Shown piece after piece: positions 2,947-62,780 of a stretch of 64,000 nucleotides of DNA (the stretch's first letter is position 1; every line of letters starts with the position of its first letter). Source of the DNA: Escherichia coli (lineage in GTDB: Bacteria > Pseudomonadota > Gammaproteobacteria > Enterobacterales > Enterobacteriaceae). The notes under the pieces were generated by a model. It made no database searches and had not been told where the DNA came from. It was given only the letters and a program-made list of their open reading frames with translations. The DNA lies in the NCBI RefSeq assembly GCF_024502345.1, contig NZ_JALDNN010000001.1; one strand, 5' to 3'. The translations under genes and the position numbers were made by a program.

Positions 2947-3060
2947 TTACCCTGAACTGACGATACAACAAAGGCGCAACGCTTTTGAGATAAAGGATCG
3001 ATGCTTTCGCTGCTTTTACCCTCTACCATTAGGCTAATTGCGACGAGAAAGGGACGACCT

Positions 3061-3600
3061 ATGAATATTAACGTTTTTCGACTGATCCTGCTGGGAAGCC
3101 TATTCAGCCTTAGCGCCTGTGTGCAGCAAAGTGAAGTGCGACAGATGAAACACAGCGTCAGCACGCTGAACCAGGAGATGACGCAACTCAATCAAGAAAC
3201 AGTCAAAATCACTCAGCAAAACAGGCTGAATGCAAAATCCAGCAGTGGGGTTTACCTTCTGCCTGGAGCGAAAACACCGGCAAGACTGGAAAGCCAGATC
3301 GGTACTTTACGTATGTCGCTGGTGAATATTACGCCTGATACAGATGGCACCACCCTGACACTACGTATTCAGGGTGAGTCGAATGATCCCTTGCCCGCAT
3401 TCAGCGGAACTGTTGAATATGGGCAAATTCAGGGAACAATAGACAACTTTCAGGAAATCAATGTACAGAATCAATTGATTAATGCCCCTGCCAGCGTCCT
3501 CGCCCCCAGCGATGTTGATATTCCGTTACAGTTAAAGGGGATTTCTGTGGATCAGTTAGGCTTTGTACGTATCCACGACATTCAACCTGTTATGCAGTAA
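3061..3600 (+). CDS. yajI: lipoprotein YajI
   Basis: Track ORF 3001..3600; lipoprotein signal peptide MNINVFRLILLGSLFSLSAC (lipobox LSAC) begins at 3061. Confidence 0.85.
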   Translation: MNINVFRLILLGSLFSLSACVQQSEVRQMKHSVSTLNQEMTQLNQETVKITQQNRLNAKSSSGVYLLPGAKTPARLESQIGTLRMSLVNITPDTDGTTLTLRIQGESNDPLPAFSGTVEYGQIQGTIDNFQEINVQNQLINAPASVLAPSDVDIPLQLKGISVDQLGFVRIHDIQPVMQ

Positions 3601-3898
3601 ACGTATAGCGGGGCGATTTTGTGCGTCCCGCAACATCCTTCCCCATCATTTTGTTACTCCGCTTACATAACCCAGATTGATAGTAAAAGTTTGCAACAAG
3701 GGCGAAAGTCAGTACAATCCCCGCCCGAATGTGTGTAAACGTGAACGCAATCGATTACGTAAATGATAGAACTGTGAAACGAAACATATTTTTGTGAGCA
3801 ATGATTTTTATAATAGGCTCCTCTGTATACGAAATATTTAGAAACGCAATTTGCGCCTTTTTCACTCCCGCAAGGGATTTTCAAACAGTGGCATACAT

Positions 3899-4783
3899 AT
3901 GAAAAAAACATTACTGGCAGCCGGTGCGGTACTGGCGCTCTCTTCGTCTTTTACTGTCAACGCAGCTGAAAACGACAAACCGCAGTATCTTTCCGACTGG
4001 TGGCACCAGAGCGTTAACGTTGTCGGAAGCTATCACACCCGTTTCGGACCGCAGATCCGCAACGATACCTACCTTGAGTACGAAGCATTCGCTAAAAAAG
4101 ACTGGTTCGACTTCTATGGTTATGCGGATGCGCCGGTATTCTTCGGCGGTAACTCCGATGCAAAAGGTATCTGGAACCACGGTTCTCCGCTGTTTATGGA
4201 AATCGAACCACGTTTCTCCATCGACAAGCTGACCAATACTGACCTTAGCTTCGGTCCGTTCAAAGAGTGGTACTTCGCGAACAACTACATTTACGACATG
4301 GGTCGTAATAAAGATGGTCGCCAGAGCACCTGGTACATGGGTCTGGGTACCGATATCGACACTGGCCTGCCGATGAGCCTGTCCATGAACGTCTATGCGA
4401 AATACCAGTGGCAGAACTATGGCGCAGCGAACGAAAACGAGTGGGACGGTTACCGTTTCAAAATTAAATACTTTGTGCCGATTACCGATCTGTGGGGCGG
4501 TCAGCTGAGCTACATCGGCTTTACCAACTTCGACTGGGGTTCCGATTTAGGGGATGACAGCGGTAACGCAATCAACGGTATTAAGACCCGTACTAATAAC
4601 TCTATCGCTTCCAGCCATATTCTGGCTCTGAACTACGATCACTGGCACTACTCTGTCGTAGCTCGTTACTGGCACGACGGTGGTCAGTGGAACGACGATG
4701 CAGAACTGAACTTCGGCAACGGCAACTTCAACGTTCGCTCTACCGGCTGGGGTGGTTACCTGGTAGTAGGTTACAACTTCTGA
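3899..4783 (+). CDS. tsx: nucleoside-specific outer membrane channel Tsx
   Basis: Track ORF 3851..4783; [25 protein letters not shown]... signal peptide starts at 3899; ends in aromatic residue (..VVGYNF) typical of OMPs; 294 aa. Confidence 0.95.
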
Positions 4784-4790
4784 TTATGAA

Positions 4791-4818
4791 AATGCCGGGA
4801 TTTATTCCCGGCATTTCA
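4791..4818 (+). terminator. rho-independent terminator of tsx
   Basis: Hairpin GCCGGGATTTATTCCCGGC (4794-4812) followed by ATTTCAG just after the tsx stop. Confidence 0.6.
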
Positions 4819-4844
4819 GATTGTTAACAACGTGCGCTTTGTTC

Positions 4845-4946
4845 ATGCCGGATGCGGCGTAAACGCTTTGTCCGGCCCACAAAAGCACGTAAATTCAATA
4901 TATTGCTGAAATAACGTAGGCCTGATAAGCGTAGCGCATCAGGCAA
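4845..4946. repeat. REP (repetitive extragenic palindrome) pair
   Basis: GCCGGATGCGGCGTAAACGCTTTGTCCGGC and GTAGGCCTGATAAGCGTAGCGCATCAGGC, canonical REP consensus, between convergent tsx and yajD. Confidence 0.8.
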
Positions 4947-4959
4947 TTTTACGTTTTAA

Positions 4960-5307
4960 TCACTTCTTCTTGTTCATCATCGCTTTCAGGTCAGCGAATG
5001 GGTTGTACTTCGCTTCACCGACATCTTTCTGCGCATCTTCCCCTGCGATAACGGTCGTACCATACTGATCCGCTTCGGTATATTTCGAATGCTCATGATC
5101 GTGGCAATAGAGACAAAGCAATTCCTAGTTACTGCCATCTTCCGGGTTATTGGTATGGTCGTGATCAATGTGGTGAACAGTAAGTTCACGCAGGTTGGAA
5201 TAGACAAACTCGCGGGAACAGCGACCGCAGACCCACGGATAGATTTTTAATGCTTTTTCGCGATAGCCGCTTTCTAACCGCGCATAGTTTTTTGGGATGA
5301 TAGCCAT
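4960..5307 (-). pseudogene. yajD: HNH-family protein YajD, interrupted by an in-frame amber codon (TAG at 5125-5127, minus strand)
   Basis: Track ORF 5125..5307 (60 aa, MAIIPKNYARLESGYREK...NNPEDGSN) stops at TAG; the same frame continues ELLCLYCH... to TGA at 4960-4962, giving the recalled 115 aa YajD length if read through. Confidence 0.75.
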
Positions 5308-5382
5308 GAAAAGTTACCTGGATGAAATGTAGAGTTACGCGCAGTTTCCCAAGATGCGGGGATTATCGCAATCTCCATACAT

Positions 5383-5414
5383 CAAAAAAAATCCCGATCT
5401 TCTGACCGGGATTT
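5383..5414 (-). terminator. rho-independent terminator downstream of secF
   Basis: Minus-strand hairpin AATCCCGGTCAGAAGATCGGGATT followed by a run of 8 T. Confidence 0.6.
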
Positions 5415-5435
5415 TCAACATCAACGGGAAATTGA

Positions 5436-6407
5436 TTAAGGCAGAATTGACGGCTGATCCGCTCCTTCTTTTTCCACTTTCTGCTGCAACATGTGTTCGC
5501 GCTTCATACCCAGTTTCAGAGCCAACGCAGATGCTACGTAGATGGAAGATGCAGTGCCGATGGAAACACCGATAAGCATGGTCAGCGAGAAGCCTTCCAG
5601 TACCGGACCACCGAAGAGATACAGCATCAGGATAACCATCAAGGTAGTACCGGATGTGATCAAGGTACGGTGCAGCGTCTGGGTCAAGGACACGTTAAAG
5701 ATTTCGTAAGGCGTACCGCGACGGATCTTGCGGAAGTTTTCACGAATACGGTCCGATACCACGATACTGTCGTTAAGCGAGTAACCGATAACCGACATCA
5801 ACGATGCCACAATGGTCAGGTCAATCTCGATATGGAATAACGACAAAATACCCAGCGTAATGATAACGTCGTGCGCCAGCGCAATAACCACCCCTGCCGC
5901 CAGTCGCCACTCAAAGCGGAAACCTACGTACACAAGGATAGACAGCAGCGCTGCCATCAACGCCATCGCACCGGTTTGCGCAAGGTCTGCCCCCACGCTC
6001 GGACCGACGAACTCAATACGCTTCACTGCTGCATTCTGATTGGTGGATTCGTTAATCACCTTCAGAACCTGGCTGCCCAGCACCTGACCGCCGGTTTCGC
6101 CTTCAGCAGGCGGCATACGGACCATGATGTCGTGGCTGCTACCAAAGTTTTGCAGCATCGGCTCTTCAAAACCGGCTTTTTGCAATGCATCACGCATTAC
6201 GTCAATTTCAGCCGGTTTTTCGAGCGTAATTTCGATAACCGTACCACCGGTGAAATCCAGCCCCCAGTTAAAGCCGCGCACGCCCATAATAACGATAGCA
6301 GCGATTAACAGCAGACCAGAGATGCCAAAAGCCCAGTAGTCCCAGCGCATAAAGTCATAGACTTTACGGCCGTGGTTTAGTTGTTCAACAGTATATTCCT
6401 GTGCCAC
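5436..6407 (-). CDS. secF: protein translocase subunit SecF
   Basis: Track ORF 5436..6452; recognised SecF N-terminus (V/M)[23 protein letters not shown] starts at a GTG at 6407, giving 323 aa. Confidence 0.9.
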
Positions 6408-41739: not shown

Positions 41740-44743
<3,004 letters not shown>

Positions 44744-45268
44744 TTGTCATCCCTCCTCAGGGACATAATAAGTTGATCCATCAATTATCAATGCATAGAA
44801 AACATATTATGTTTCGCGTTGACGATTATGCGGCGTTATAGAGGAATGGTTCAATTATTCTTTCCCCTAAGTCCGATTGCGGACATATATAAAGCACGTG
44901 AACACACACACAGAAATAAATAACAAAAACACAATATTTCAATACGTTAATGAAAGCGTTAATTTTAAAACATAGACCATGAAAATATAAAACAACTAAA
45001 ACAGACAAATAATGTATCAATAAGCAATGAACTTTAAGTTATTCACTTTTTGAAAACGTCACCAAATCCCCAAAAACAATAATCTATGGCTATAAATAAA
45101 AATTAAAAATATTTTCAGTGAATATGAAATTATTGCTATTTCTATTACAAAGATGTCCTGGTCTCTCTTTCATTCTCTTCTTGTCAACATCACGACAACT
45201 TTCGTAAAACACTCCTGCCCCGCTTCAGGTATACTGTGCACCTTAATTCCACAAACATCAGGCAGACC

Positions 45269-48801: not shown

Positions 48802-49764
48802 TTATTGCACGAAGCGCGAGGTAACGTACTGGCTGTAATCATTCGCTACAGCCGGGACCTTGCCCTGCTCTTTCAAAAACTGCGCGGTGTCGATGATCGC
48901 TTTGTTCACCGGTCCGGTCAGTTCTGCCGTTTGTTGCTGCGGCGTCAGATAGGTATTCCCCTTCACCAGCCCCGGAACGTCACCTTCAGGCACGCCGCTT
49001 AAACGCGCCAGTTTGCTGATGTTTTCCGGCTGTTTCAGCCACGCGTCTGGGTTAGCAATGTACGGTTGCTGAGCATCGATGGCGCTTTTGGCGAACGCTT
49101 TCACGACCTCAGGATGTTTCTCGGCAAAATCTTTGCGCACCACCCAGACGTCCAGCGTTGGCGCACCCCACTGCCCGACCTGTTCAGAATCGGTCAGCAC
49201 CTTGCCGTCTTTTTCCAGGGCGTTAACCGCCGGTGCCCAGACATAAGCACCATCAATATCTCCCCGCTGCCAGGCAGCGATAATCGCGGGCGGCTGCAGG
49301 TTCACAATCTCCACTTGCCCGGGTTTAATGCCCCAGTGTTTCAGCGCCGCCAGCAGGCTGTAGTGGGTAGTGGAGATAAACGGTACGGCGATGCGTTTGC
49401 CAATCAGATCTTCGGGTTTGCTGATAGTTTTCTTCACCACCAGCGCTTCGGAGTTACCCAGTTTTGACGCCAGCAAGAAGACTTCAATCGGCACCTGTTG
49501 GCTGGCTGCAACCGCTAATGGGCTGGAACCGAGGTTGCCGATTTGCACGTCGCCAGAAGCCAGCGCCCGCACGATGCTGGCTCCGCTGTCAAACTTACGC
49601 CAGTCCACGGTTGCTCCGCTTTCTTTAGCAAAGGTGTTGTCGGCCTGAGCCACTTTCGCCGGTTCGGCTGAGGTTTGATACGCCACGGTGACGTTCACCG
49701 CCTGCGCCTGAAAAGCGATGAATGCCAGTGCGGCAAGAAGAGTGTTACGCGATGAAATTGCCAT
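48802..49764 (-). CDS. tauA: taurine ABC transporter periplasmic binding protein
   Basis: Track ORF 320 aa; signal peptide MAISSRNTLLAALAFIAFQAQA. Confidence 0.95.
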   Translation of the reverse strand: MAISSRNTLLAALAFIAFQAQAVNVTVAYQTSAEPAKVAQADNTFAKESGATVDWRKFDSGASIVRALASGDVQIGNLGSSPLAVAASQQVPIEVFLLASKLGNSEALVVKKTISKPEDLIGKRIAVPFISTTHYSLLAALKHWGIKPGQVEIVNLQPPAIIAAWQRGDIDGAYVWAPAVNALEKDGKVLTDSEQVGQWGAPTLDVWVVRKDFAEKHPEVVKAFAKSAIDAQQPYIANPDAWLKQPENISKLARLSGVPEGDVPGLVKGNTYLTPQQQTAELTGPVNKAIIDTAQFLKEQGKVPAVANDYSQYVTSRFVQ

Positions 49765-50066
49765 GATTGTCTGCTCCCCTGTCTTGTTATGGGAGCAGTA
49801 TTTCGTTGCGGGTCAGTTTGATAAAGGAATTAAAAGGTCTTGTTAAGAACAAAGCGTTTTTAGAAAAAAATCGGCAATGGTTAGCGAGTTTGCGCATTTT
49901 GCGGTTTTGGCGAACGTATCCCGCCGGTTCACAAGCCAGATAAGATGTGCGCGCTCCGGCAAATTATTGCCATTTTGTTACATCCATTCCATATCTGTCG
50001 CTGGTTGATTGCCAGCGCCGCGCCGTGATGCATGATAGGAGAATTAGATAATAAGAGAAGAAAAGT

Positions 50067-50696
50067 ATGATTCGGGTAGTGCTGGTGGATGACCATGTGG
50101 TGGTGCGCTCTGGCTTCGCACAATTACTCTCTCTGGAAGACGATCTGGAGGTCATTGGTCAGTACAGTAGTGCCGCGCAGGCATGGTCGGCATTAATCCG
50201 TGATGACGTCAATGTTGCCGTCATTGATATTGCCATGCCGGACGAAAACGGCCTCAGTTTGCTTAAGCGCCTGCGTGCACAAAAACCGCAATTTCGCGCC
50301 ATTATTCTTAGCATTTATGACGCGCCAACCTTTGTGCAAAGCGCGCTGGATGCCGGTGCCAGCGGGTATTTAACCAAACGCTGTGGGCCGGAAGAGTTAG
50401 TACAGGCGGTGCGCTCGGTCGGGCTGGGCGGGCATTATCTCTGTGCCGATGCGATTCGGGCTTTACGCGGCGGCGGGCAACCCGCCCAGGCGCTGGAAAT
50501 TCTCACCCCACGAGAACGTGAAGTGTTTGATTTACTGGTCAAAGGAGACAGCGTTAAAGAGATCGCCTTTAAACTCGAACTCAGTCATAAAACGGTACAT
50601 GTGCATCGCGCCAATGTGCTGGGAAAACTGAACTGCCATAGCACCATTGAACTGGTACATTTTGCGCTCGACCACCATCTGCTGGCGGGGCATTAA
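50067..50696 (+). CDS. UhpA-like response regulator (NarL/FixJ family, LuxR-type HTH)
   Basis: Track ORF 209 aa, MIRVVLVDDHVVVRSGFAQLL...; receiver domain with DD..D and C-terminal HTH (KEIAFKLELSHKTVHVHRANVLGKL); aligns along its length with recalled UhpA. Confidence 0.85.
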   Translation: MIRVVLVDDHVVVRSGFAQLLSLEDDLEVIGQYSSAAQAWSALIRDDVNVAVIDIAMPDENGLSLLKRLRAQKPQFRAIILSIYDAPTFVQSALDAGASGYLTKRCGPEELVQAVRSVGLGGHYLCADAIRALRGGGQPAQALEILTPREREVFDLLVKGDSVKEIAFKLELSHKTVHVHRANVLGKLNCHSTIELVHFALDHHLLAGH

Positions 50697-52237
50697 TGTC
50701 GCGCAATCTTCGTCATTGGGTGATTTCGCTGTTTATTGTGCTGGCCTGGGGAACCGGCTGGCTGATGCTGTGGACGCTCAGCTTTTATCTGACCAATAAC
50801 GGTCAACAGGCGGTGTTGTTTCTCCCGCAGGGAGTTTATCTCGCCCTTGTTATTTTGCTCTCTCGCCGCTACTGGCCTGCGTTGGTGCTCCCCCCTTTGC
50901 TGATGATGTTCTGGCTCCATAGTGAACAGCTATTGAACGGTTATCTCATGCTGGCAACGCCGGTTATTAGCCTGTTTCCTGTCCTCCTTGCGCAAAACTT
51001 CTGGCACCGTTTTCCACTTTACTGGCAGCGTCTGACGTTGCTGTTAGCCACTGTCACGGCAGCTTCATTGTTGAATACCGCCCTGCTCTCCCCTTTTATG
51101 TCAGGCCCAATAATGCTGCCGGGTTTGACCTCATTTACCGGCGGCGTATTACTGACGCCGTTTGTCTATCTTATCTTTGAGTTTCTGCGCCAGCAGCATC
51201 GCTACCAGCTCCTGGGACTCGATACGCATAATCCCCCCTTGCGTACCTCTTTAATCATCTGGTGTAGCCTGTTTTTTATTATTGGTATCGGCACTCAGAT
51301 GGTGCTGTCACCTGAAATTGAACGTCTGCTGTTGATCGTGGTCTTTTTGCCCAATGTGGTGATGGCGTGGAAATTTGGCTGGCAAGGTGGCGTACTCTCC
51401 GGGCTTTTGGGCAGCATGATGATCACCATCGCCCGCCAGATTGGCGTGGGCTTTAGTAACCTGGTGGAGCTGGAGATTTTCCTCGCGACCCAGGCCTTGC
51501 TGGGAATTGGCCTGGGCATTGCCATCAGTCGCCAGCAACATCTGGCGCTAAACCTGCACCATTACCGACAACGGCTGGAGGCCGAGCTGGCAGCGCGGCG
51601 GGCATTGGCGGAAAAGCTGATCCACACCGAGGAGGACACGCGAAAAAACCTGGCGCGAGAGCTGCACGACGAAATCGGTCAGAACATCACCGCCATTCAG
51701 ATCCAGTCGCAACTGGTGAAGCGGGCGCGTGATCCGGCGCAAATTCAATCCGCAGCCAGCCAAATCAATGAGCTCGCCCGCCGCATTCATCTCTCCACCC
51801 GCCAATTGCTGCGCCAGTTGCGGCCTCCCGCGCTTGATGAACTGACATTTCGCGAAGCGTTGCTGCATCTGATTAATGAATTTGCCTTTAGTGAACGCGG
51901 CATTCATTGCCAGTTTGCCTATCAACTGAACTCCACACCAGAAAACGAAACGGTGCGCTTTACCTTGTATCGGTTATTGCAGGAGTTGCTCAATAACATC
52001 TGTAAACACGCCGAAGCCAGCGAAGTGACGATTATCCTGCGCCAGCAGGGAGAGGTATTGCATCTGGAAGTCAGCGACAACGGTGTGGGGATCGCCAGCG
52101 GGAAAATGGCCGGATTTGGCATTCAGGGGATGCGTGAGCGCGTCAGCGCCCTGGGCGGCGACTTAACGCTCGAAAAACAGCACGGCACGCGGGTAATTGT
52201 TAACTTGCCCACATTTTTGCAACAAATCGCCGGATAA
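50696..52237 (+). CDS. UhpB-like sensor histidine kinase (MASE1-type membrane domain, HisKA_3, HATPase)
   Basis: Track ORF 513 aa; multiple N-terminal TM helices, H-box ELHDEIGQNITAI, ATP-binding region; start overlaps the stop of the upstream regulator. Confidence 0.85.
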   Translation: MSRNLRHWVISLFIVLAWGTGWLMLWTLSFYLTNNGQQAVLFLPQGVYLALVILLSRRYWPALVLPPLLMMFWLHSEQLLNGYLMLATPVISLFPVLLAQNFWHRFPLYWQRLTLLLATVTAASLLNTALLSPFMSGPIMLPGLTSFTGGVLLTPFVYLIFEFLRQQHRYQLLGLDTHNPPLRTSLIIWCSLFFIIGIGTQMVLSPEIERLLLIVVFLPNVVMAWKFGWQGGVLSGLLGSMMITIARQIGVGFSNLVELEIFLATQALLGIGLGIAISRQQHLALNLHHYRQRLEAELAARRALAEKLIHTEEDTRKNLARELHDEIGQNITAIQIQSQLVKRARDPAQIQSAASQINELARRIHLSTRQLLRQLRPPALDELTFREALLHLINEFAFSERGIHCQFAYQLNSTPENETVRFTLYRLLQELLNNICKHAEASEVTIILRQQGEVLHLEVSDNGVGIASGKMAGFGIQGMRERVSALGGDLTLEKQHGTRVIVNLPTFLQQIAG

Positions 52238-52309
52238 CCAGGAAAAAGTCTTAGGTATCCCGGATTTTCTCTCATCCCCTTTCACTTTCATTTTCATATA
52301 GTCAGCAAC

Positions 52310-53626
52310 ATGGAGACAACCATGCACGCGCGTTCAGCGAGAGAAATTAATCAATGCTACCGGACATTACGTCCGCGATTGCTGATGTGCATGATTATTG
52401 GCTACGCCGCATTTTATCTGACGCGAAAAAGCGTGAATTACGTCCTTCCGGCGCTACAAACCGACCTCGGACTGGATAAAGGCGACATTGGCCTGCTGGG
52501 TTCGCTGTTTTATCTCAGCTACGGATTGTCGAAATTTACCGCCGGACTGTGGCATGACAGCCATGGACAACGCGGTTTTATGGGCGTCGGCTTGTTCGCC
52601 ACCGGGTTATTGAACGTGGTGTTTGCCTTTGGCGAATCACTTACGCTTCTGCTTGTGGTCTGGACACTGAACGGTTTTTTTCAGGGCTGGGGATGGCCAC
52701 CGTGTGCCCGCTTGCTGACCCACTGGTACTCACGCAATGAGCGCGGTTTCTGGTGGGGCTGCTGGAATATGTCGATCAACATTGGCGGAGCGATTATTCC
52801 GCTGATTAGCGCCTTTGCCGCCCACTGGTGGGGCTGGCAGGCCGCGATGCTGACACCGGGGATAATCAGCATGGCATTAGGGATCTGGTTAACGCTACAA
52901 CTCAAAGGCACGCCCCAGGAAGAGGGATTACCGACAGTTGGTCACTGGCGTCACGATCCGCTGGAGTTACGTCAGGAACAACAAAGTCCGCCGATGGGGC
53001 TGTGGCAAATGTTGCGCACCACCATGCTGCAAAATCCGCTGATCTGGCTACTGGGCGTCTCTTATGTACTGGTTTATGTGATCCGGATTGCGCTTAACGA
53101 CTGGGGCAATATCTGGCTGACGGAAAGCCACGGTGTCAACCTGCTCAGCGCCAACGCCACGGTAATGCTGTTTGAAGTGGGCGGCTTACTCGGCGCGTTA
53201 TTTGCCGGATGGGGATCGGATTTGCTGTTTAGCGGGCAACGAGCGCCAATGATTTTGCTGTTCACGTTGGGGTTGATGGTGTCAGTCGCCGCACTGTGGC
53301 TGGCACCGGTTCATCACTACGCTCTGCTGGCAGTGTGCTTTTTTACCGTGGGCTTTTTCGTCTTTGGCCCACAAATGCTGATTGGACTTGCGGCGGTGGA
53401 GTGTGGGCACAAAGCTGCGGCGGGTTCAATCACCGGATTTCTCGGCCTGTTCGCTTACCTTGGCGCGGCGCTGGCAGGCTGGCCGCTGTCGCTGGTCATC
53501 GAACGCTACGGCTGGCCGGGAATGTTCAGTTTACTCTCGGTCGCCGCAGTACTTATGGGTTTACTGCTGATGCCGTTACTGATGGCGGGCATCACCACCA
53601 CTCACGCTCGAAGGATAAAACAATGA
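52310..53626 (+). CDS. UhpC-like MFS membrane protein (putative sugar-phosphate sensor)
   Basis: Track ORF 438 aa; organophosphate:Pi antiporter-type MFS motifs (YLTRKS, FFQGWGWPPCARLLTHWYS), similar in length and sequence to recalled UhpC. Confidence 0.8.
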   Translation: METTMHARSAREINQCYRTLRPRLLMCMIIGYAAFYLTRKSVNYVLPALQTDLGLDKGDIGLLGSLFYLSYGLSKFTAGLWHDSHGQRGFMGVGLFATGLLNVVFAFGESLTLLLVVWTLNGFFQGWGWPPCARLLTHWYSRNERGFWWGCWNMSINIGGAIIPLISAFAAHWWGWQAAMLTPGIISMALGIWLTLQLKGTPQEEGLPTVGHWRHDPLELRQEQQSPPMGLWQMLRTTMLQNPLIWLLGVSYVLVYVIRIALNDWGNIWLTESHGVNLLSANATVMLFEVGGLLGALFAGWGSDLLFSGQRAPMILLFTLGLMVSVAALWLAPVHHYALLAVCFFTVGFFVFGPQMLIGLAAVECGHKAAAGSITGFLGLFAYLGAALAGWPLSLVIERYGWPGMFSLLSVAAVLMGLLLMPLLMAGITTTHARRIKQ

Positions 53627-54654
53627 AAATGACCTTTACCTCTACTCTGATTGCTTCTGCCGTTGCGCTGGCGACTTTAACGGGTGCCGCGCAGGCAAAA
53701 GGCCGGCTGGTGGTCTATTGCAGCGCCACCAATGAAATGTGTGAGGCCGAAACCAAAGCGTTTGGCGAGAAATATGATGTAAAAACCTCGTTTATCCGCA
53801 ACGGTTCCGGAAGCACCCTGGCAAAAGTCGATGCTGAAAAGAAAAACCCCCAGGCTGACGTCTGGTACGGCGGCACTTTAGACCCGCAATCGCAGGCTGG
53901 CGAGATGGGCCTGCTACAGGCGTATAAATCCCCTAACCTTGAGCAGATCATGGAGAAATTCCGCGATCCGGCAAAAGTGAAAGGGAATCTGTCCTCTGCC
54001 GTTTATGTGGGGATCCTCGGTTTTGGCGTAAACACCGATCGTCTGAAAGAGAAAAACCTGCCGGTGCCGAAGTGCTGGAAAGATCTCACCAAACCGGAAT
54101 ATAAAGGCGAAATTCAAATTGCCGATCCGCAAAGTTCCGGTACTGCCTACACCGCCCTGGCTACTTTTGCGCAGCTGTGGGGGGAAGATCAGGCCTTTGA
54201 TTATCTAAAACAACTGAACGCCAACGTCTCTCAGTACACCAAATCAGGCATAGCCCCGGCACGTAACGCCGCCCGTGGCGAAACGGCGATTGGTATTGGC
54301 TTCCTGCATGACTACTCGCTGGAAAAAGAACAGGGCGCGCCGCTGGAGTTGATTTCCCCGTGTGAAGGTACGGGCTACGAAATTGGCGGCGTCAGCATTC
54401 TGAAAGGCGCGCGCAACCTCGACAACGCCAAACTGTTTGTGGACTGGGTATTATCAAAAGAAGCTCAGGAACTGGCGTGGAAGAAAGGGAAGTCTTATCA
54501 GATCCTGACCAATACCACCGCCGAAACGTCGCCAAATTCGCTGAAGCTCGACGACCTGAAATTAATCAACTACGACATGGATAAATATGGTTCCACGGAT
54601 GTTCGTAAGGCATTGATTAATAAATGGGTCAGCGAAGTGAAGATGGGTAAATAA
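53623..54654 (+). CDS. afuA: AfuA/FbpA-type periplasmic substrate-binding protein of an ABC importer
   Basis: In-frame ATG at 53623 within track ORF 53296..54654 gives 343 aa with signal peptide MKMTFTSTLIASAVALATLTGAAQA; ATG overlaps the stop of the UhpC-like gene (ATGA). Confidence 0.8.
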   Translation: MKMTFTSTLIASAVALATLTGAAQAKGRLVVYCSATNEMCEAETKAFGEKYDVKTSFIRNGSGSTLAKVDAEKKNPQADVWYGGTLDPQSQAGEMGLLQAYKSPNLEQIMEKFRDPAKVKGNLSSAVYVGILGFGVNTDRLKEKNLPVPKCWKDLTKPEYKGEIQIADPQSSGTAYTALATFAQLWGEDQAFDYLKQLNANVSQYTKSGIAPARNAARGETAIGIGFLHDYSLEKEQGAPLELISPCEGTGYEIGGVSILKGARNLDNAKLFVDWVLSKEAQELAWKKGKSYQILTNTTAETSPNSLKLDDLKLINYDMDKYGSTDVRKALINKWVSEVKMGK

Positions 54655-54722
54655 ACCCGCATTAGGCGTATTTGCCGGGTGCAGCACAAACGCCTGCCCC
54701 GGCCAACCATACCGGAACTACT

Positions 54723-56801
54723 ATGTCACAGACACTTGCACTCCATCCCGTGAAAAAGCGGGATGCGATTTTCCTTTGGGTTTTACTGGGCTGGCTGGCA
54801 TTTATACTGTTGCCGAGCTGGAGCCTCGATTATGGCCTGCTGGAGTCCACGAGTGATGAGATCCTCGAGGCTTATGGCTGGTCGCATTTTAATATCAGCT
54901 GGCTGTGGTATTTACTCCCGAGCCTGTTGCTGGTTCGCCCGTTTCGTGAGGCCACGCGCGAACAGCGTAGTCGTCATTATTTTGATGCCAGCTGGGCATT
55001 GCTCTGTATGGCGTTTATCGTCATCAGCGCCACCGTGGCTGGACGCGGTTTAGGCTACGCCGCCATCGTGCTGTTTGTTGAACTAGGCGCGATTATGACG
55101 CTGGCCTTAACCCGCCTCGAATGGCTGGGCGGCGACCGCTTCGTGATCGGCTCACTGATTGCGATTGTGGCGCTGATTGGCATTTTTATCGTCTGGCCGA
55201 GCATCGCCATTTTTATCCCGATGTTCACCAACGACGCGGGAGAGTTCGCCCCGCTGGCGTTTATGACCGTGCTCTCGCAGGCACATATTGTTCAGGTGAT
55301 CGTCAACTCTATCGTCTTGTCGATAGCGGTGGGGATAGGCTGTACTTTCTTCGGCCTGGTGCTGGCGATTTATACCACGCGCATCGCTAAACGCAGCGCC
55401 ATTATTGGTCGCATCTTTTCCATTTTGCCCATCGTTACGCCACCGTTTGTGGTCGGCTTAGGCGTGACGCTCATGATGGGGCGCTCCGGCTATGTTACGG
55501 AATTTATGGTGGAGTGGTTTGGGCTGACCAACACCAACTGGCTGTACGGTTTTACCGGGATCTGGCTGGCACAGGTTCTGGCATTCACGCCAATGGCATT
55601 TATGATCCTCGACGGGGCCATTAAAACCATTCATCCCTCGCTGGAAGAGGCCTCCTACACCCTGCGCGCCAGCCGCTGGCAAACCTTTAACGGCGTGTTT
55701 GTGCCGTTGTTGAAGCCCGCACTCGCCAATGCCTTTTTAATCGTCGTGGTACAGTCACTGGCTGATTTCAGTAACCCGCTGGTACTTGGCGGTAACTTCG
55801 ACGTACTGGCGACGCAAATTTACTTCTATATTACCGGCTCGCAGCTGGATTATCAGGCCGCCAGCACGCTTGGCGCTTTCCTGCTGCTGTTCTCGCTGCT
55901 GGTGTTCTGCATCCAGTATATGTGGATTGGTAAACGCTCTTACGTCACGGTTTCCGGCAAATCCTACCGTGGCGACGTCCAGCCGCTACCGGTCACCCTG
56001 GTGTGGAGCGTGGTCGCCATACTTGCGATATGGATTGCCTTTAACGCCCTGCTCTACGGCAGCATTTTCTACGGCAGCTTCACGGTGAACTGGGGCGTGG
56101 ACTACACCCTGACGCTGGATAACTTTATCAAGCTATTTGGTCAGGGAATGAGCGACGGCGCGTGGCCTTCACTGCTGGATACCCTGCTCTACGCCGGGAT
56201 TGCCGCTCCCATTACCGCTATCTTTGGCCTGCTCATCGCCTGGGTGGTGGTGCGTCAACAATTCAAAGGCAAAAAGACCATCGAGTTCACCACCATGCTG
56301 TGCTTTGCCGTACCGGGTACGGTGGCGGGCGTTTCGTATATTCTTGCCTTTAACAGCGCTCCGGTTTATCTCACCGGAACGGCGGCAATTGTGATTATCT
56401 CGATGGTGATGCGTAACGTTCCGGTGGGTATTCGCGCCGGGATTGCGGGTCTGGGGCAGATCGACAAATCGCTGGATGAAGCCTCACTCAGCCTGCGCGC
56501 GGGTTCCTTGCGAACCATAACCCACATTTTACTGCCGCTGCTGCGTCCGGCCATTCTCTCGGCCCTGATCTACAGCTTTGTGCGGGCCATCACGACGGTC
56601 AGCGCCATCGTCTTTCTCGTCACGCCGGACACCCGCGTGGCAACCGCCTACATTCTTAACCGCGTTGAAGACGGCGAATATGGCGTAGCCATCGCCTATG
56701 GTTCGATTCTGATCGTGGTGATGCTGGCGATTATTTTCCTCTTTGACTGGCTGATCGGAGAAGCTCGTATCTCCCGTTCTAAAGCCAAAAACAAGGCGTA
56801 A
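54723..56801 (+). CDS. afuB: AfuB/FbpB-type ABC permease with two fused transmembrane domains
   Basis: Track ORF 54672..56801 starts at a TTG; first ATG at 54723 (MSQTLALHP...) gives about 692 aa; duplicated ABC permease modules; the alternative start at 54672 cannot be excluded. Confidence 0.8.
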
Positions 56802-57859
56802 TGGAGCGCACTATGAGTCAGAAAAATTTTGTTGAACTGCGCAACGTCACTAAACGATTCGGCAGTAATACGGTTATCGACAATATCAATCTCACCATTC
56901 CACAAGGGCAAATGGTGACGCTGCTCGGTCCTTCCGGCTGTGGCAAAACCACCATTTTGCGTCTGGTTGCCGGGCTGGAAAAACCGAGCGAAGGGCAAAT
57001 TTTTATTGATGGCGAAGATGTCACGCATCGTTCCATTCAACAGCGCGATATCTGCATGGTGTTTCAGTCATACGCTCTGTTCCCGCATATGTCGCTGGGT
57101 GAAAACGTTGGCTACGGGCTGAAGATGCTTGGCGTCTCGCGTAGCGAAGTGAAACAGCGGGTGAAGGAGGCGCTGGCAATGGTGGATCTGGAAGGCTTCG
57201 AGGACCGCTATGTCGATCAGATTTCCGGTGGTCAGCAACAGCGTGTGGCACTGGCCCGCGCGTTGATCCTCAAGCCAAAGGTGCTGCTGTTTGATGAGCC
57301 GTTAAGTAACCTCGATGCCAACCTGCGCCGCAGTATGCGCGATAAGATCCGCGAGCTGCAAAAGCAGTTTAATATCACGTCGCTCTACGTCACTCACGAT
57401 CAAAGTGAAGCTTTCGCGGTGTCCGACACTGTGCTGGTGATGAATAAAGGTCACATCATGCAGATTGGCTCACCGCAGGATCTCTATCGTCAGCCAGCCT
57501 CCCGATTTATGGCAAGTTTTATGGGCGACGCCAACCTGTTCCCGGCGAACTTTAGCGAAGAGTATGTCGATATCTACGGTTATCGCCTGCCGCGCGCGGC
57601 GCATTTCCCGGCGCAAGGTAGCGGCACCGTCGGCGTTCGCCCGGAAGCCATCACCTTAAGCAATCACGGCGAAGAGAGTCAGCGTTGTGTTATTCGCCAT
57701 GTCGCCTACATGGGGCCGCAGTACGAAGTGACCGTAGAGTGGCATGGACAGGAGATTTTATTACAAGTAAACGCCACCCGTTTACAGCCCGATATTGGTG
57801 AGCACTATTACCTCGAAATCCATCCTTACGGGATGTTTGTTTTAGCGGATACGGCATAA
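56801..57859 (+). CDS. afuC: AfuC/FbpC-type ABC transporter ATP-binding protein
   Basis: Track ORF 352 aa; Walker [10 protein letters not shown], signature [14 protein letters not shown], Walker [11 protein letters not shown]-terminal TOBE-like regulatory domain; ATG overlaps the afuB stop (TAATG); a start at 56813 with a GGAG RBS is also possible. Confidence 0.85.
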
Positions 57860-57873
57860 AAATAGCACATAAA

Positions 57874-57900
57874 CGGTCCCCATCTGTCTTGAGGGACCGT
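57874..57900 (+). terminator. possible terminator hairpin after afuC
   Basis: GGTCCC-N12-GGGACC stem-loop 15 bp after the afuC stop; no strong T-tract. Confidence 0.4.
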
Positions 57901-57943
57901 TCACCTGGTTAGGCTTCGGACAACAATTATTCTCCAGTGTTAT

Positions 57944-57992
57944 ATACTATAGGGGGGTATGTATTGACATATAGCATACCCCCCTATAGTAT
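57944..57992 (+). promoter_or_regulatory. frmRAB promoter/operator: long inverted repeat with G6/C6 tracts
   Basis: ATACTATAGGGGGGTATG-(12 bp with TTGACA)-CATACCCCCCTATAGTAT, near-perfect 18-bp arms 27 bp upstream of the frmR ATG; matches the TACT-G6-N-AGTA type RcnR/FrmR operator. Confidence 0.75.
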
Positions 57993-58018
57993 ATTGCGTG
58001 CAGATGATGAGGTGCGAA

Positions 58019-58294
58019 ATGCCCAGTACTCCGGAAGAGAAGAAAAAGGTCCTTACTCGAGTTCGTCGTATTCGGGGGCAGATTGATGCTCTGGAACGGT
58101 CGCTGGAGGGTGATGCCGAATGCCGTGCCATACTCCAACAGATCGCTGCCGTTCGGGGCGCGGCTAACGGGCTGATGGCAGAAGTGCTTGAAAGCCATAT
58201 CCGGGAAACGTTTGACCGAAATGACTGCTACAGCCGCGAAGTCAGCCAATCCGTTGACGACACTATTGAACTGGTTCGAGCCTATCTTAAATAG
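58019..58294 (+). CDS. frmR: formaldehyde-responsive repressor FrmR (CsoR/RcnR family)
   Basis: Track ORF 57998..58294; recognised N-terminus [31 protein letters not shown] gives 91 aa. Confidence 0.9.
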
Positions 58295-58298
58295 CTGA

Positions 58299-59438
<1,140 letters not shown>

Positions 59439-60377: not shown

Positions 60378-60470
60378 CTGCCGGATGCGGCGTGAACGCC
60401 TTATCCGGCCTACACTTCGCCCATAAACCGTAGGCCTGATAAGACGCGTAAGCGTCGCATCAGGCATCTG
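60378..60470. repeat. REP pair
   Basis: CCGGATGCGGCGTGAACGCCTTATCCGG and GTAGGCCTGATAAGACGCGTAAGCGTCGCATCAGGC between convergent frmB and yaiL. Confidence 0.8.
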
Positions 60471-62432: not shown

Positions 62433-62780
62433 ATGTAGGCCGGATAAGGCGTTCACGCCGCATCCGGCAGTCGTGTGCAGATGCCTGATGCGACGCTTGC
62501 GCGTCTTATCAGGCCTACAAATTCCCGCGCCATCCGTAGGCCGGACAAGACGTTTGCGCCGCATCTGGCAGTCGTGCGCAGATGCCTGATGCGACGCTAA
62601 CGCGTCTTATCAGGCCTACAAATTCCCGCGCCATCCGTAGGCCGGATAAGGCGTTCACGCCGCATCCGGCAGTCGTGCGCAGATGCCTGATGCGACGCTA
62701 ACGCGTCTTATCAGGCCTACAAATTCTCGCGCCATCCGTAGGCCGGATAAGGCGTTCACGCCGCATCCGGCAGTCGTGCT
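62433..62780. repeat. BIME: array of about seven alternating REP units (about 3.5 tandem doublets of roughly 100 bp)
   Basis: Repeated GTAGGCCGGATAAGGCGTTCACGCCGCATCCGGCAGTCGTG and GATGCCTGATGCGACGCT(A/T)(A/G)CGCGTCTTATCAGGCCTAC units with near-identical copies between mhpT and mhpE. Confidence 0.85.

What the first reader, a model, noticed from the sequence alone, without database searches (positions are those of the whole stretch)
49765..50066. Island junctions carry no mobility signatures
The left junction (tauA start to regulator start, about 300 bp) and right junction (57860-57943, ending at the frmR operator) show no integrase, IS fragment or tRNA. I did not see flanking direct repeats by eye. 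This points to an old replacement, or a deletion in the K-12 lineage, rather than a recent mobile insertion.
Basis: inference. Interest (0 to 1): 0.35.

Follow-up and report, generated by a model that had tools for sequence, protein, structure and literature searches.

The report
Ancestral OI-20 block, not an insertion
The 8-kb "island" between tauA and frmR (the known O157 O-island 20, encoding the FusKR sensor and the AfuABC sugar-phosphate importer) has clean junctions because it is an old, vertically inherited piece of enterobacterial chromosome that K-12-like E. coli replaced and ST131-like E. coli deleted, so the finding is correct but ordinary.

Summary
Neither junction (49765-50066; 57860-57943) holds a tRNA, integrase, IS or REP fragment, or a bracketing repeat above chance. 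Both are single-copy in 5,426 complete E. coli genomes.

The block is O-island 20 of O157:H7 (fusR, fusK, uhpC-like, afuABC).

- **Left junction:** it is the native divergent tauA/fusR promoter region, alignable in 30 loci from 10 genera. It is not an insertion scar.
- **Synteny:** the block sits in the same slot (hemB-tauDCBA | block | ... mhpT) as in Citrobacter.
- **Age:** its synonymous-site divergence from Citrobacter and Klebsiella equals that of the flanking core genes.

E. coli has three main alleles at this locus:

- The ancestral afu block, in about 450 genomes.
- A K-12-type replacement of window 49803 to about 57916 by yaiS-yaiO, in about 4,135 genomes.
- A B2/ST131-type deletion of 49903 to about 57916 that leaves one REP, in 595 genomes.

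Two qualifications apply. About 69 genomes carry the same block as cargo beside a tyrosine integrase, at tRNA-Phe or next to ulaE. K-12 also holds an IS-bounded, Citrobacter-like afuB'-afuC remnant in CP4-6.

The block is already known and interest is low to moderate. The main value is that reviews call FusKR "laterally acquired", and this evidence argues against that.

The parts
48802..49764 (-). tauA, the first gene of tauABCD, which forms the left flank
   Evidence: NCBIfam NF008553, 698 bits. RefSeq annotation of the near-identical strain L26 agrees.
49765..49802 (-). tauA 5' leader shared by all E. coli alleles. The K-12-type replacement begins immediately after 49802.
   Evidence: Homology to the K-12-type allele ends at 49802. 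This 38-bp stretch is 86-100% identical across genera.
49803..49902 (-). Ancestral tauA promoter and activator region. It is shared with the B2 'empty' allele and with other genera. In the K-12 type it is replaced by a 48%-identical, in-register version.
   Evidence: Cross-genus alignment. B2 homology ends at 49902. In-register identity to the K-12 type is 48/100, against a null of 25.5 +/- 4.5 with a maximum of 42 over 7,368 offsets.
49903..49962 (.). Hypervariable spacer of the divergent intergenic region. No repeat element is present here in the window.
   Evidence: This stretch is unalignable between genera. The equivalent position holds REPs (L007, L012, L017, L047, L013), ERIC-like elements (L009, L023) or 2.6-3.6 kb gene cassettes (L046, L015) elsewhere.
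49963..50066 (+). Conserved fusR promoter region, with promoter-like TTGCCA 50009-50014 and CATGAT 50031-50036. The integrase-island copies start to match at about 49974.
   Evidence: Cross-genus conservation, promoter scan and island-copy alignment.
50067..50696 (+). fusR, a LuxR/UhpA-like response regulator
   Evidence: Best NCBIfam match is UhpA at 193 bits, below the cutoff of 258, so it is a paralogue and not UhpA itself. It is named FusR and placed in OI-20 in PMC4546632 and PMC11644481.
50696..52237 (+). fusK, a MASE1 histidine kinase (UhpB-like)
   Evidence: UhpB model scores 381.7 bits, below the cutoff of 408. RefSeq calls it a 'MASE1 domain-containing sensor histidine kinase'.
52310..53626 (+). 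UhpC-like MFS sugar-phosphate receptor or transporter (RefSeq start at 52322 in L26)
   Evidence: NF008661, 587.7 bits, above the cutoff. Annotation agrees.
53623..54654 (+). afuA, periplasmic sugar-phosphate binding protein
   Evidence: Annotation. It is 85-98% identical in amino acids to orthologues in 80 Enterobacterales loci. Function as described in PMC4546632.
54723..56801 (+). afuB, fused ABC permease
56813..57859 (+). afuC (annotated fbpC), ABC ATPase
   Evidence: NF008513, 699 bits. Annotation agrees.
57860..57916 (+). afuC 3' region with an imperfect hairpin at 57874-57903 and no T-run. It is private to afu-type alleles and travels with the block in the tRNA-Phe island copy.
   Evidence: RNA fold gives a centroid of -17 kcal/mol, but the z-score for the whole 68 nt is only -1.4. 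Alignments. Single copy in 450 genomes.
57917..57941 (+). Zone where the K-12-type and B2-type alleles rejoin the window (57917-57927). The tRNA-Phe island copy still matches up to about 57937, so this DNA was contiguous with both afuC and frmR in the ancestor.
   Evidence: Alignment A3 and BLAST boundaries.
57942..57994 (+). frmR operator palindrome overlapping the frmR promoter (TTGACA 57964-57969, N17, TAGTAT 57987-57992). Shared by all alleles.
   Evidence: Inverted repeat I1, promoter scan and alignment.
58019..58294 (+). frmR, which begins the right flank (frmRAB). This flank is specific to Escherichia.
   Evidence: NF008464. tblastn finds frmR only in the E. coli loci. frmA and frmB are absent downstream of afuC in other genera.

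Best explanation
The 8.0-kb block (window about 49903-57916; fusR-fusK-uhpC-like-afuA-afuB-afuC, O-island 20 of EHEC O157:H7) is not an inserted element. It is a vertically inherited segment of the ancestral Enterobacteriaceae chromosome, still in its native slot.

The left 'junction' is the native bidirectional regulatory region between tauA and fusR. The right 'junction' is the native afuC 3' end running into the frmR promoter. Mobility scars are therefore not expected.

The presence/absence pattern in E. coli arose in the other alleles:
- K-12-type genomes (about 76%) replaced window 49803 to about 57916 with an unrelated 3.9-kb segment, made of the yaiS-yaiP-yaiX-yaiO cassette plus about 580 bp of private upstream DNA.
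- B2/ST131-type genomes (about 11%) deleted 49903 to about 57916, leaving one REP element.

Shown here: the synteny, the orthology of the intergenic region, the equal divergence, the breakpoints and the allele counts.

Inferred: that the alleles then spread or were kept among E. coli lineages by homologous recombination in the conserved tau and frm flanks, and that the tauA-fusR spacer is a hotspot where cassettes enter without integrases.
For: 1. **Identity.** NCBIfam and RefSeq annotation and PMC4546632 place afuABC and fusKR on OI-20. O157:H7 genomes match the block at 99.2%.

2. **Gene order and left adjacency.** All 80 Enterobacterales loci found with AfuA keep the six-gene order where enough flank was recovered. 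In 30 loci from Citrobacter, Escherichia, Klebsiella, Raoultella, Enterobacter, Leclercia, Lelliottia, Silvania, Huaxiibacter and Intestinirhabdus, tauDCBA(-) lies next to fusR(+) as in the window.

3. **Intergenic orthology.** The tauA-proximal ~135 bp and the fusR-proximal ~100 bp of the 302-bp left junction align across these genera. Only the middle varies.

4. **Wider synteny.** Citrobacter has hemB-tauDCBA | block | REP-mmuM(-mmuP)-mhpT-mhpE. The window has hemB-tauDCBA | block | frmRAB-yaiL-mhpT-mhpE.

5. **Equal age.** Third-codon-position identity of the window to Citrobacter, Klebsiella and Raoultella is about 50-68% for block genes, about 53-65% for hemB/tauABCD and 50-56% for mhpT. 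The divergent Escherichia locus L011 is 90-94% identical in nucleotides in hemB/tau and 92-95% in the block.

6. **Breakpoints.** The B2 allele keeps the ancestral tauA promoter segment (49803-49902) that the K-12 type lacks, so it derives from an afu-type ancestor and not from the K-12 type. The tRNA-Phe island copy carries afuC-downstream DNA to about 57937. That overlaps the stretch from 57917 that K-12 and B2 alleles keep beside frmR, so afuC and frmR were contiguous in the ancestor.

7. **Clean junctions.**

8. **Allele counts.** 450 afu-type, 595 B2-type and 4,135 K-12-type left junctions.
Against: - The block is patchy within E. coli, at about 8% of complete genomes, dominated by O157:H7, O55:H7 and O145. 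That is also what a later import would give.
- Identity along the block is mosaic. O157 versus the window is 99.4-100% over most of the block but 95.6% at the afuC end, so recombination has acted here.
- Synonymous sites between E. coli and Citrobacter are close to saturation. The equal-age test excludes recent transfer but not an ancient one.
- Only one non-coli Escherichia locus (L011) was recovered, and its contig ends just after afuC, so the right junction outside E. coli is unseen.
- E. albertii and E. fergusonii did not appear among the best 80 loci and their state was not determined.
- No phylogeny of the 5,426 genomes was built.
Confidence: 0.8

Rival explanations
1. The block was lost early in Escherichia coli and later brought back into the phylogroup E-like lineages. 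The route would be homologous recombination from another Escherichia or enterobacterial chromosome, using the conserved tau and frm flanks. This is horizontal transfer without any mobility gene, which would also leave clean junctions.
For: - Only about 8% of genomes carry the block at this locus.
- Identity tracts inside the block are mosaic.
- Escherichia-level variants of the block about 94% identical to the window circulate (L084, L011).
- The yai allele is itself deeply split, with 94-95% and about 86-90% identity classes, which shows frequent allele exchange at this locus.
Against: - The block and its flanks show the same divergence to L011 and to other genera.
- The flanks of afu+ strains are not unusually divergent from K-12-type flanks: tauA 98.5%, frmA 98.7%.
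- The B2 allele independently retains the ancestral tauA promoter segment. This shows the ancestral-type left end persisted in a second E. coli lineage.
- This rival differs from the best explanation only in the within-species route, not in what the junctions are.
Confidence: 0.15
2. The block is a site-specific genomic island whose integrase, att repeats and tRNA target have decayed beyond recognition at this site.
For: The same six genes, matching from window about 49974 to 57881 or about 57937, lie directly downstream of a tyrosine recombinase in about 69 genomes. In L085 they are beside tRNA-Phe. In L084 and L086 they are beside ulaE, with IS and other island cargo downstream.
Against: - The left junction is orthologous, base for base, with the tauA-fusR intergenic region of 10 genera.
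- There is no tRNA in the window.
- There are no repeats above chance.
- The junction DNA is single-copy.
- GC content matches the flanks.
- The integrase-island copies contain less of the intergenic DNA than the window does, so they look like captures from a chromosomal locus rather than its source.
Confidence: 0.03
3. The apparent cleanliness is an artefact of looking in the wrong place. The real insertion would be larger, for example including tauABCD or frmRAB, with scars further out.
For: - frmRAB is absent downstream of afuC in all other genera, so the frm side was rearranged at some time in Escherichia.
- REPs lie at 60430-60465 and 62483-62724.
Against: - hemB, tauDCBA, yaiL, mhpT and mhpE are syntenic with Citrobacter on both sides.
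- All 5,424 matching E. coli genomes share the tau and frm flanks whatever the allele.
- The variable segment is bounded by 49803/49903 and 57917-57927.
Confidence: 0.02

Closest known systems
O-island 20 (OI-20) of E. coli O157:H7 EDL933/Sakai: fusKR, a UhpC-like gene (z0461 from memory, not checked here) and afuABC
   Same: Same six genes in the same order and at the same tauA|frmR location. Identity to many O157:H7 genomes is 99.2%. Functions are as published: AfuABC imports glucose-6-P, fructose-6-P and sedoheptulose-7-P (PMC4546632), and FusKR senses fucose and represses ler (PMC11644481, citing Pacheco 2012).
   Different: The window is not O157. Its best match is chicken isolate L26 (99.7-99.9%). 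The literature treats OI-20 as a 'putative pathogenicity island' or a 'laterally acquired' two-component system. The evidence here points to ancestral chromosome lost from most E. coli.
Replacement or 'hotspot' variable segments of the E. coli chromosome, where alternative gene cassettes occupy one site between conserved core genes and are exchanged by homologous recombination of the flanks (general concept from my own knowledge of comparative E. coli genomics)
   Same: At least three alternative contents lie between the same core flanks. They share breakpoints to within about 10 bp on the frmR side. There are no integrase or att sites. The alleles are spread over many lineages.
   Different: One allele here can be shown to be the ancestral, family-wide state rather than another import. 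The K-12-type swap also removed most of the ancestral tauA promoter region.
tRNA-associated integrative genomic islands with a P4-like tyrosine integrase
   Same: The identical block occurs as first cargo next to such an integrase at tRNA-Phe (L085) and at a site beside ulaE (L084, L086).
   Different: None of the defining parts (integrase, tRNA, att repeats) is present in the window.
UhpABC-UhpT hexose-phosphate sensing and uptake system of E. coli K-12
   Same: The response regulator, MASE1 kinase and UhpC-like MFS protein are paralogues of UhpA, UhpB and UhpC. Both systems deal with sugar phosphates.
   Different: The regulator and kinase score below the equivalog cutoffs (193 against 258 bits; 382 against 408 bits). 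The transporter partner is an ABC importer (AfuABC), not UhpT. K-12's uhp locus is elsewhere, so K-12 does not carry 'the same genes under other names'.

Membership tests
Integrative genomic island (integrase/att/tRNA type) | Tyrosine or serine recombinase gene at one end | tested here: not met
   No such ORF lies between 48802 and 58294. The junction ORFs have no Pfam hits.
Integrative genomic island (integrase/att/tRNA type) | Insertion next to a tRNA or tmRNA gene | tested here: not met
   ARAGORN finds 0 genes in the whole window.
Integrative genomic island (integrase/att/tRNA type) | Flanking direct repeats (attL/attR) | tested here: not met
   The longest direct match between the junctions is 8 nt, against shuffles of 7.5 +/- 1.0.
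Integrative genomic island (integrase/att/tRNA type) | An empty site in relatives that equals the two flanks joined | tested here: not met
   The B2 'empty' allele is not flank plus flank. It lacks 49903-57916 and carries 64-75 bp of private DNA with a REP. Other genera have the block in place.
IS-bounded composite element | IS copies or IS-end remnants at both borders, with target-site duplication | tested here: not met
   The junction DNA is single-copy in 5,426 genomes and has no transposase-like ORFs. By contrast, K-12's afuB'-afuC-mmuMP fragment is IS1/IS5-bounded.
O-island 20 / FusKR-AfuABC locus | Six genes fusR-fusK-uhpC-like-afuA-afuB-afuC between tauA and frmR, near-identical to O157:H7 | tested here: met
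   99.1-99.2% identity over the whole block and flanks to O157:H7 genomes. OI-20 content as given in PMC4546632.
O-island 20 / FusKR-AfuABC locus | Sugar-phosphate transport by AfuABC and fucose signalling by FusKR | not testable with these tools
   Function is taken from the literature. Only sequence identity was tested here.
Ancestral (vertically inherited) chromosomal segment | Conserved synteny on both sides in related genera | tested here: met
   The left side (tauDCBA, hemB) is conserved in 10 genera. On the right, mhpT/mhpE (and yaiL in L008) follow within 1-3 kb in Citrobacter. The immediate right neighbour differs: mmuM/mmuP there, frmRAB here.
Ancestral (vertically inherited) chromosomal segment | Divergence equal to that of neighbouring core genes | tested here: met
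   Third-position identity is about 50-68% for the block and about 53-65% for hemB/tau against Citrobacter, Klebsiella and Raoultella. L011 shows 92-95% against 90-94% nucleotide identity.
Ancestral (vertically inherited) chromosomal segment | Distribution on the species tree compatible with retention plus losses | not tested
   No core-genome phylogeny of the 5,426 genomes could be built with these tools. Only allele counts and strain names are available.

The most novel reading that the evidence does not exclude
The tauA-fusR spacer and the afuC-frmR gap may form an integrase-independent cassette-exchange hotspot shared across Enterobacteriaceae.

Unrelated modules occupy the same intergenic position with no mobility genes:
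- yaiSPXO in E. coli.
- yaiSPXO directly upstream of fusR in C. braakii, where it replaces tauABCD.
- A PAAR toxin module in C. amalonaticus.
- A DUF7916/DUF218 pair in an Enterobacter.
- REP and ERIC elements in several species.

The K-12-type swap also brought in a xenologous tauA promoter, 48% identical but in exact register with conserved motifs. On this reading, the textbook K-12 tauA regulatory region is the foreign one. It would also follow that FusKR/AfuABC, described in reviews as 'laterally acquired' by EHEC, is really an ancestral enterobacterial nutrient-sensing locus that most E. coli lost.
Probability: 0.35. Interest if true: 0.45.

Novelty: already known. Interest (0 to 1): 0.3.

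Why it matters
The block itself (OI-20, FusKR, AfuABC) is well studied, and clean junctions on a K-12-absent segment are common.

The useful point is a correction of framing. EHEC literature treats FusKR/OI-20 as a horizontally acquired pathogenicity island specific to a few hypervirulent serotypes (PMC4546632; PMC11644481). The comparative evidence here indicates something different:
- It is a family-wide, syntenic enterobacterial locus.
- About 8% of complete E. coli genomes retain it at the native site.
- It was replaced in K-12-like strains and deleted in ST131-like strains.
- It has been secondarily re-mobilised on integrase islands.

This affects how its role in virulence evolution is interpreted: loss in commensals rather than gain in pathogens. 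It also shows that the experimentally characterised K-12 tauA promoter differs radically from the ancestral one carried by O157 and B2 strains.

Tried and rejected
- **Bracketing repeats.** The repeat finder over 49500-58300 and a dedicated junction-versus-junction test with shuffles gave only chance-level matches.
- **IS or REP remnants in the window junctions.** Rejected because both junctions are single-copy in all E. coli genomes and have no Pfam or Rfam hits.
- **Terminator after afuC.** The hairpin at 57874-57903 has no T-run and its fold z-score is only -1.4. It is not claimed as an intrinsic terminator.
- **K-12 private DNA upstream of yaiS (L002 2304-2880).** It has no nucleotide homologue in any fetched locus beyond the shared 38-bp leader. 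A gapped local alignment to the ancestral promoter was not significant on its own (score 23 against shuffles 17.8 +/- 2.3). Only the ungapped in-register comparison was.
- **yai cassette between tauA and fusR as an 'intermediate'.** L015's 3.6-kb insert turned out to be a PAAR module, not yai. The only yai-next-to-fusR case found is C. braakii, where tau is missing.
- **L084 island copy derived from the L011 lineage.** Rejected. They are 93.2% identical, no closer than either is to the window.
- **Error noted.** The frmR protein query was out of frame (58020 instead of 58019). It was repeated correctly with the same conclusion. The frmR third-position values should be ignored.

Full report
**What is at the coordinates.** tauA occupies 48802-49764 on the minus strand. 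A six-gene plus-strand block follows:
- 50067-50696: LuxR/UhpA-like response regulator.
- 50696-52237: MASE1 histidine kinase.
- 52310-53626: UhpC-like MFS protein.
- 53623-54654: ABC substrate-binding protein.
- 54723-56801: fused permease.
- 56813-57859: ATPase annotated fbpC.

frmR (58019-58294), frmA and frmB come next. The left gap (49765-50066) is 302 bp. The right gap runs from 57860 to the 20-nt-armed frmR operator palindrome at 57942-57994. That palindrome overlaps a TTGACA-N17-TAGTAT promoter-like site.

The block matches many O157:H7 genomes at 99.2%. It is O-island 20, which carries the fucose-sensing FusKR two-component system and the AfuABC sugar-phosphate importer (PMC4546632; PMC11644481).

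**Checking the observation.**
- ARAGORN finds no tRNA or tmRNA anywhere in the window.
- ORFs spanning the junctions have no Pfam domain, and Rfam finds nothing at either junction.
- The left 302 bp has a median of one place per genome across 5,426 complete E. coli genomes and is full-length in 450.
- The right 86 bp occurs in exactly 450 genomes, once each. A genuine repeat behaves differently: the REP in the B2 allele has a median of eight places per genome.
- Between the two junctions, the longest exact direct match is 8 nt (shuffles 7.5 +/- 1.0) and the best 16-mer match is 11/16 (shuffles 11.7 +/- 0.6).
- The block's GC content (0.51-0.57) resembles the tau operon.

**Alleles and exact breakpoints.** A 10-kb query spanning the locus matched 5,424 of 5,426 genomes, but only 449 over its full length. 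Three states were fetched:
- afu-type (L003, strain 272).
- K-12-type (L002), with yaiS-ykiC-yaiP-yaiX-yaiO.
- An 'empty' ST131-like type (L001), with only 305 bp between tauA and frmR.

Pairwise BLAST and alignment give the breakpoints. K-12-type homology to the window stops at 49802/49803. The B2-type continues to 49902/49903. Both rejoin the window between 57917 and 57927, just upstream of the frmR operator.

The B2 allele carries 64-75 bp of private DNA containing a REP. It matches REP copies at window 60430-60465 and 62483-62724 and is multi-copy genome-wide.

Junction-specific queries give these counts:

| Allele | Genomes |
|---|---|
| afu-type | 450 |
| B2-type | 595 |
| K-12-type left junction | 4,135 |
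| unresolved | about 250 |

**The left junction is an orthologous intergenic region.** A scan of one genome per GTDB species with AfuA returned 348 relatives. The best 80 are all Enterobacterales. Every locus with enough flank keeps the six-gene order.

In 30 loci, tauDCBA lies divergently next to fusR exactly as in the window. These loci come from Citrobacter, Escherichia (L011), Klebsiella, Raoultella, Enterobacter, Leclercia, Lelliottia, Silvania, Huaxiibacter and Intestinirhabdus.

Aligning these intergenic regions shows three zones:
- The tauA-proximal ~135 bp is conserved.
- The fusR-proximal ~100 bp is conserved, including the promoter-like TTGCCA-N16-CAT(C/G)AT.
- Only the middle (window about 49903-49962) varies.

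That middle position holds REPs, ERIC-like elements, a PAAR module (L015) or a DUF7916/DUF218 pair (L046) in other species.

**Synteny and age.** In several Citrobacter species the order is hemB-tauDCBA | block | REPs-mmuM(-mmuP)-mhpT-mhpE. The window has hemB-tauDCBA | block | frmRAB-yaiL-mhpT-mhpE. frmR, frmA and frmB are absent downstream of afuC in all non-coli loci, so the right junction is specific to Escherichia.

Third-codon-position identity of the window to Citrobacter, Klebsiella and Raoultella is:

| Genes | Identity |
|---|---|
| block genes | about 50-68% |
| hemB/tauABCD | about 53-65% |
| mhpT | 50-56% |

L011 is a GTDB species representative labelled E. coli. It is only 90-94% identical to the window in hemB/tau, and 92-95% identical in the block. 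The block is therefore as old as its neighbours, which excludes recent import from another genus.

**Polarity within E. coli.** The B2 allele retains the ancestral tauA promoter segment (49803-49902) that the K-12 type lacks. It therefore derives from an afu-type ancestor by deletion.

The copy of the block on the tRNA-Phe island (L085) carries afuC-downstream DNA to about 57937. That overlaps the stretch from 57917 which K-12 and B2 alleles keep next to frmR. So afuC and frmR were contiguous in the E. coli ancestor. The other alleles were carved out of that arrangement.

**The K-12-type replacement.** Its private DNA beside tauA has no BLAST-detectable homologue elsewhere. However, it is 48/100 identical to window 49803-49902 in exact register. 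The null is 25.5 +/- 4.5, with a maximum of 42 over 7,368 offsets, and no shuffle out of 5,000 reached 48. The shared motifs are the same ones conserved across genera.

I infer a very diverged, probably xenologous, tauA regulatory region that arrived with the yai cassette. The crossover would lie in the highly conserved 38-bp leader.

The yaiSPXO cassette is itself nomadic:
- It sits between hemB and fusR in C. braakii, replacing tauABCD.
- It sits next to a fimbrial operon in Citrobacter sp. FP75.
- It sits near a resolvase and transposases in Salmonella.
- It occupies a second locus in E. coli G749.

It also exists in E. coli as deeply split variants (94-95% and about 86-90% identity classes).

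**Two qualifications to 'no mobility'.**

First, a block-only query found 518 genomes with at least 80% coverage, about 69 more than at the native site. In L084 and L086 the block follows a tyrosine integrase beside ulaE. In L085 it follows an integrase beside tRNA-Phe, with IS and other cargo downstream. These copies match from about 49974 (the fusR promoter) to 57881 or about 57937. They are 94.3-99.4% identical to the window, which is Escherichia-level rather than Citrobacter-level divergence. They look like captures of the chromosomal locus.

Second, K-12 and about 450 other records carry IS1B | afuB' (348 bp) | afuC | mmuM | mmuP | IS5 in CP4-6. This is 85.5% identical to the window. It is colinear with, and 92-93% identical to, the C. 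youngae and C. braakii chromosome. It is a Citrobacter-derived fragment, not the same locus under another name.

**Verdict.** The block is ancestral. K-12-type strains replaced it and B2-type strains deleted it. The absence of mobility scars follows directly.

The block is already known. The locus behaves as an ordinary flank-recombination hotspot. The modest added value is the contradiction with reviews that call FusKR/OI-20 laterally acquired, together with the xenologous K-12 tauA promoter.

Main caveats:
- No species phylogeny was built.
- Only one non-coli Escherichia locus was recovered.
- Synonymous sites against other genera are near saturation.

Noticed in passing
L084 7001-14909, L085 7001-14911, L086 7001-14909 (E. 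coli OkiPb01677, JML285, EC22): The same six-gene fus/afu block is the first cargo directly downstream of a tyrosine integrase. This occurs at tRNA-Phe (L085) or beside ulaE (L084, L086), in about 69 complete genomes. The copies are 94.3-99.4% identical to the window.
   Followed up: partly
L088 6002-9838 (K-12 MG1655 CP4-6 region): K-12 carries IS1B | afuB' remnant | afuC | mmuM | mmuP | IS5. The fragment is colinear with, and 92-93% identical to, the C. youngae and C. braakii chromosome (98.6% to C. portucalensis over mmuMP). It is a Citrobacter-derived chromosomal fragment trapped between IS elements. The same fragment also occurs on some plasmids (H66, H72).
   Followed up: partly
L090 5594-8783 and L006 about 3046-6200 (Citrobacter braakii): The yaiS-yaiP-yaiX-yaiO cassette lies between hemB and fusR, replacing tauABCD. 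This is the mirror image of E. coli K-12, where the cassette replaces fus/afu. YaiO is only about 60% identical to the E. coli protein.
   Followed up: partly
L087 4965-8171 (E. coli G749); L089, L091, L092: A second-locus copy of the yai cassette, about 90% identical in nucleotides, lies in E. coli beside IbrB/PAPS-reductase genes and an IS66 remnant. Other copies lie near a fimbrial operon in Citrobacter sp. FP75 and near a resolvase and transposases in Salmonella. The cassette is nomadic.
   Followed up: partly
L015 2820-6444; L046 3827-6441: Other species hold different cargo in the tauA-fusR spacer, with no mobility genes seen. C. amalonaticus S646 has a PAAR-domain protein with two small ORFs. 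Enterobacter sp. BIGb0383 has a DUF7916 protein plus a DUF218/TPR protein.
   Followed up: partly
window 62483-62724 and 60430-60465: Three REP copies at 101-bp spacing (a BIME-like cluster) lie between mhpT and mhpE. A single REP lies between frmB and yaiL.
   Followed up: no
window 54631-54704 (-): A sub-threshold Rfam hit to naRNA4, a REP-derived RNA family (26.9 bits, E = 0.15), falls in the afuA-afuB intergenic region. It is probably an intra-operon GC-rich hairpin.
   Followed up: no
window 56973-57881 compared with L003 (O157 strain 272): Identity to O157 drops to 95.6% over the afuC end and to 97.2% around 54473-54973, against 99.4-100% over most of the rest of the block. These look like recombination tracts inside the block.
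   Followed up: no
window 44500-45250: A low-GC stretch (0.32-0.38) lies between the large autotransporter gene (ehaB-like) and hemB.
   Followed up: no
L095 5001-5287 (E. coli GmM066) compared with L002 2266-2560: The K-12-type tauA-yaiS intergenic region exists in two subtypes only about 86% identical overall. They are nearly identical for the first ~140 bp and then diverge. This divergence is far above normal within-species levels.
   Followed up: partly
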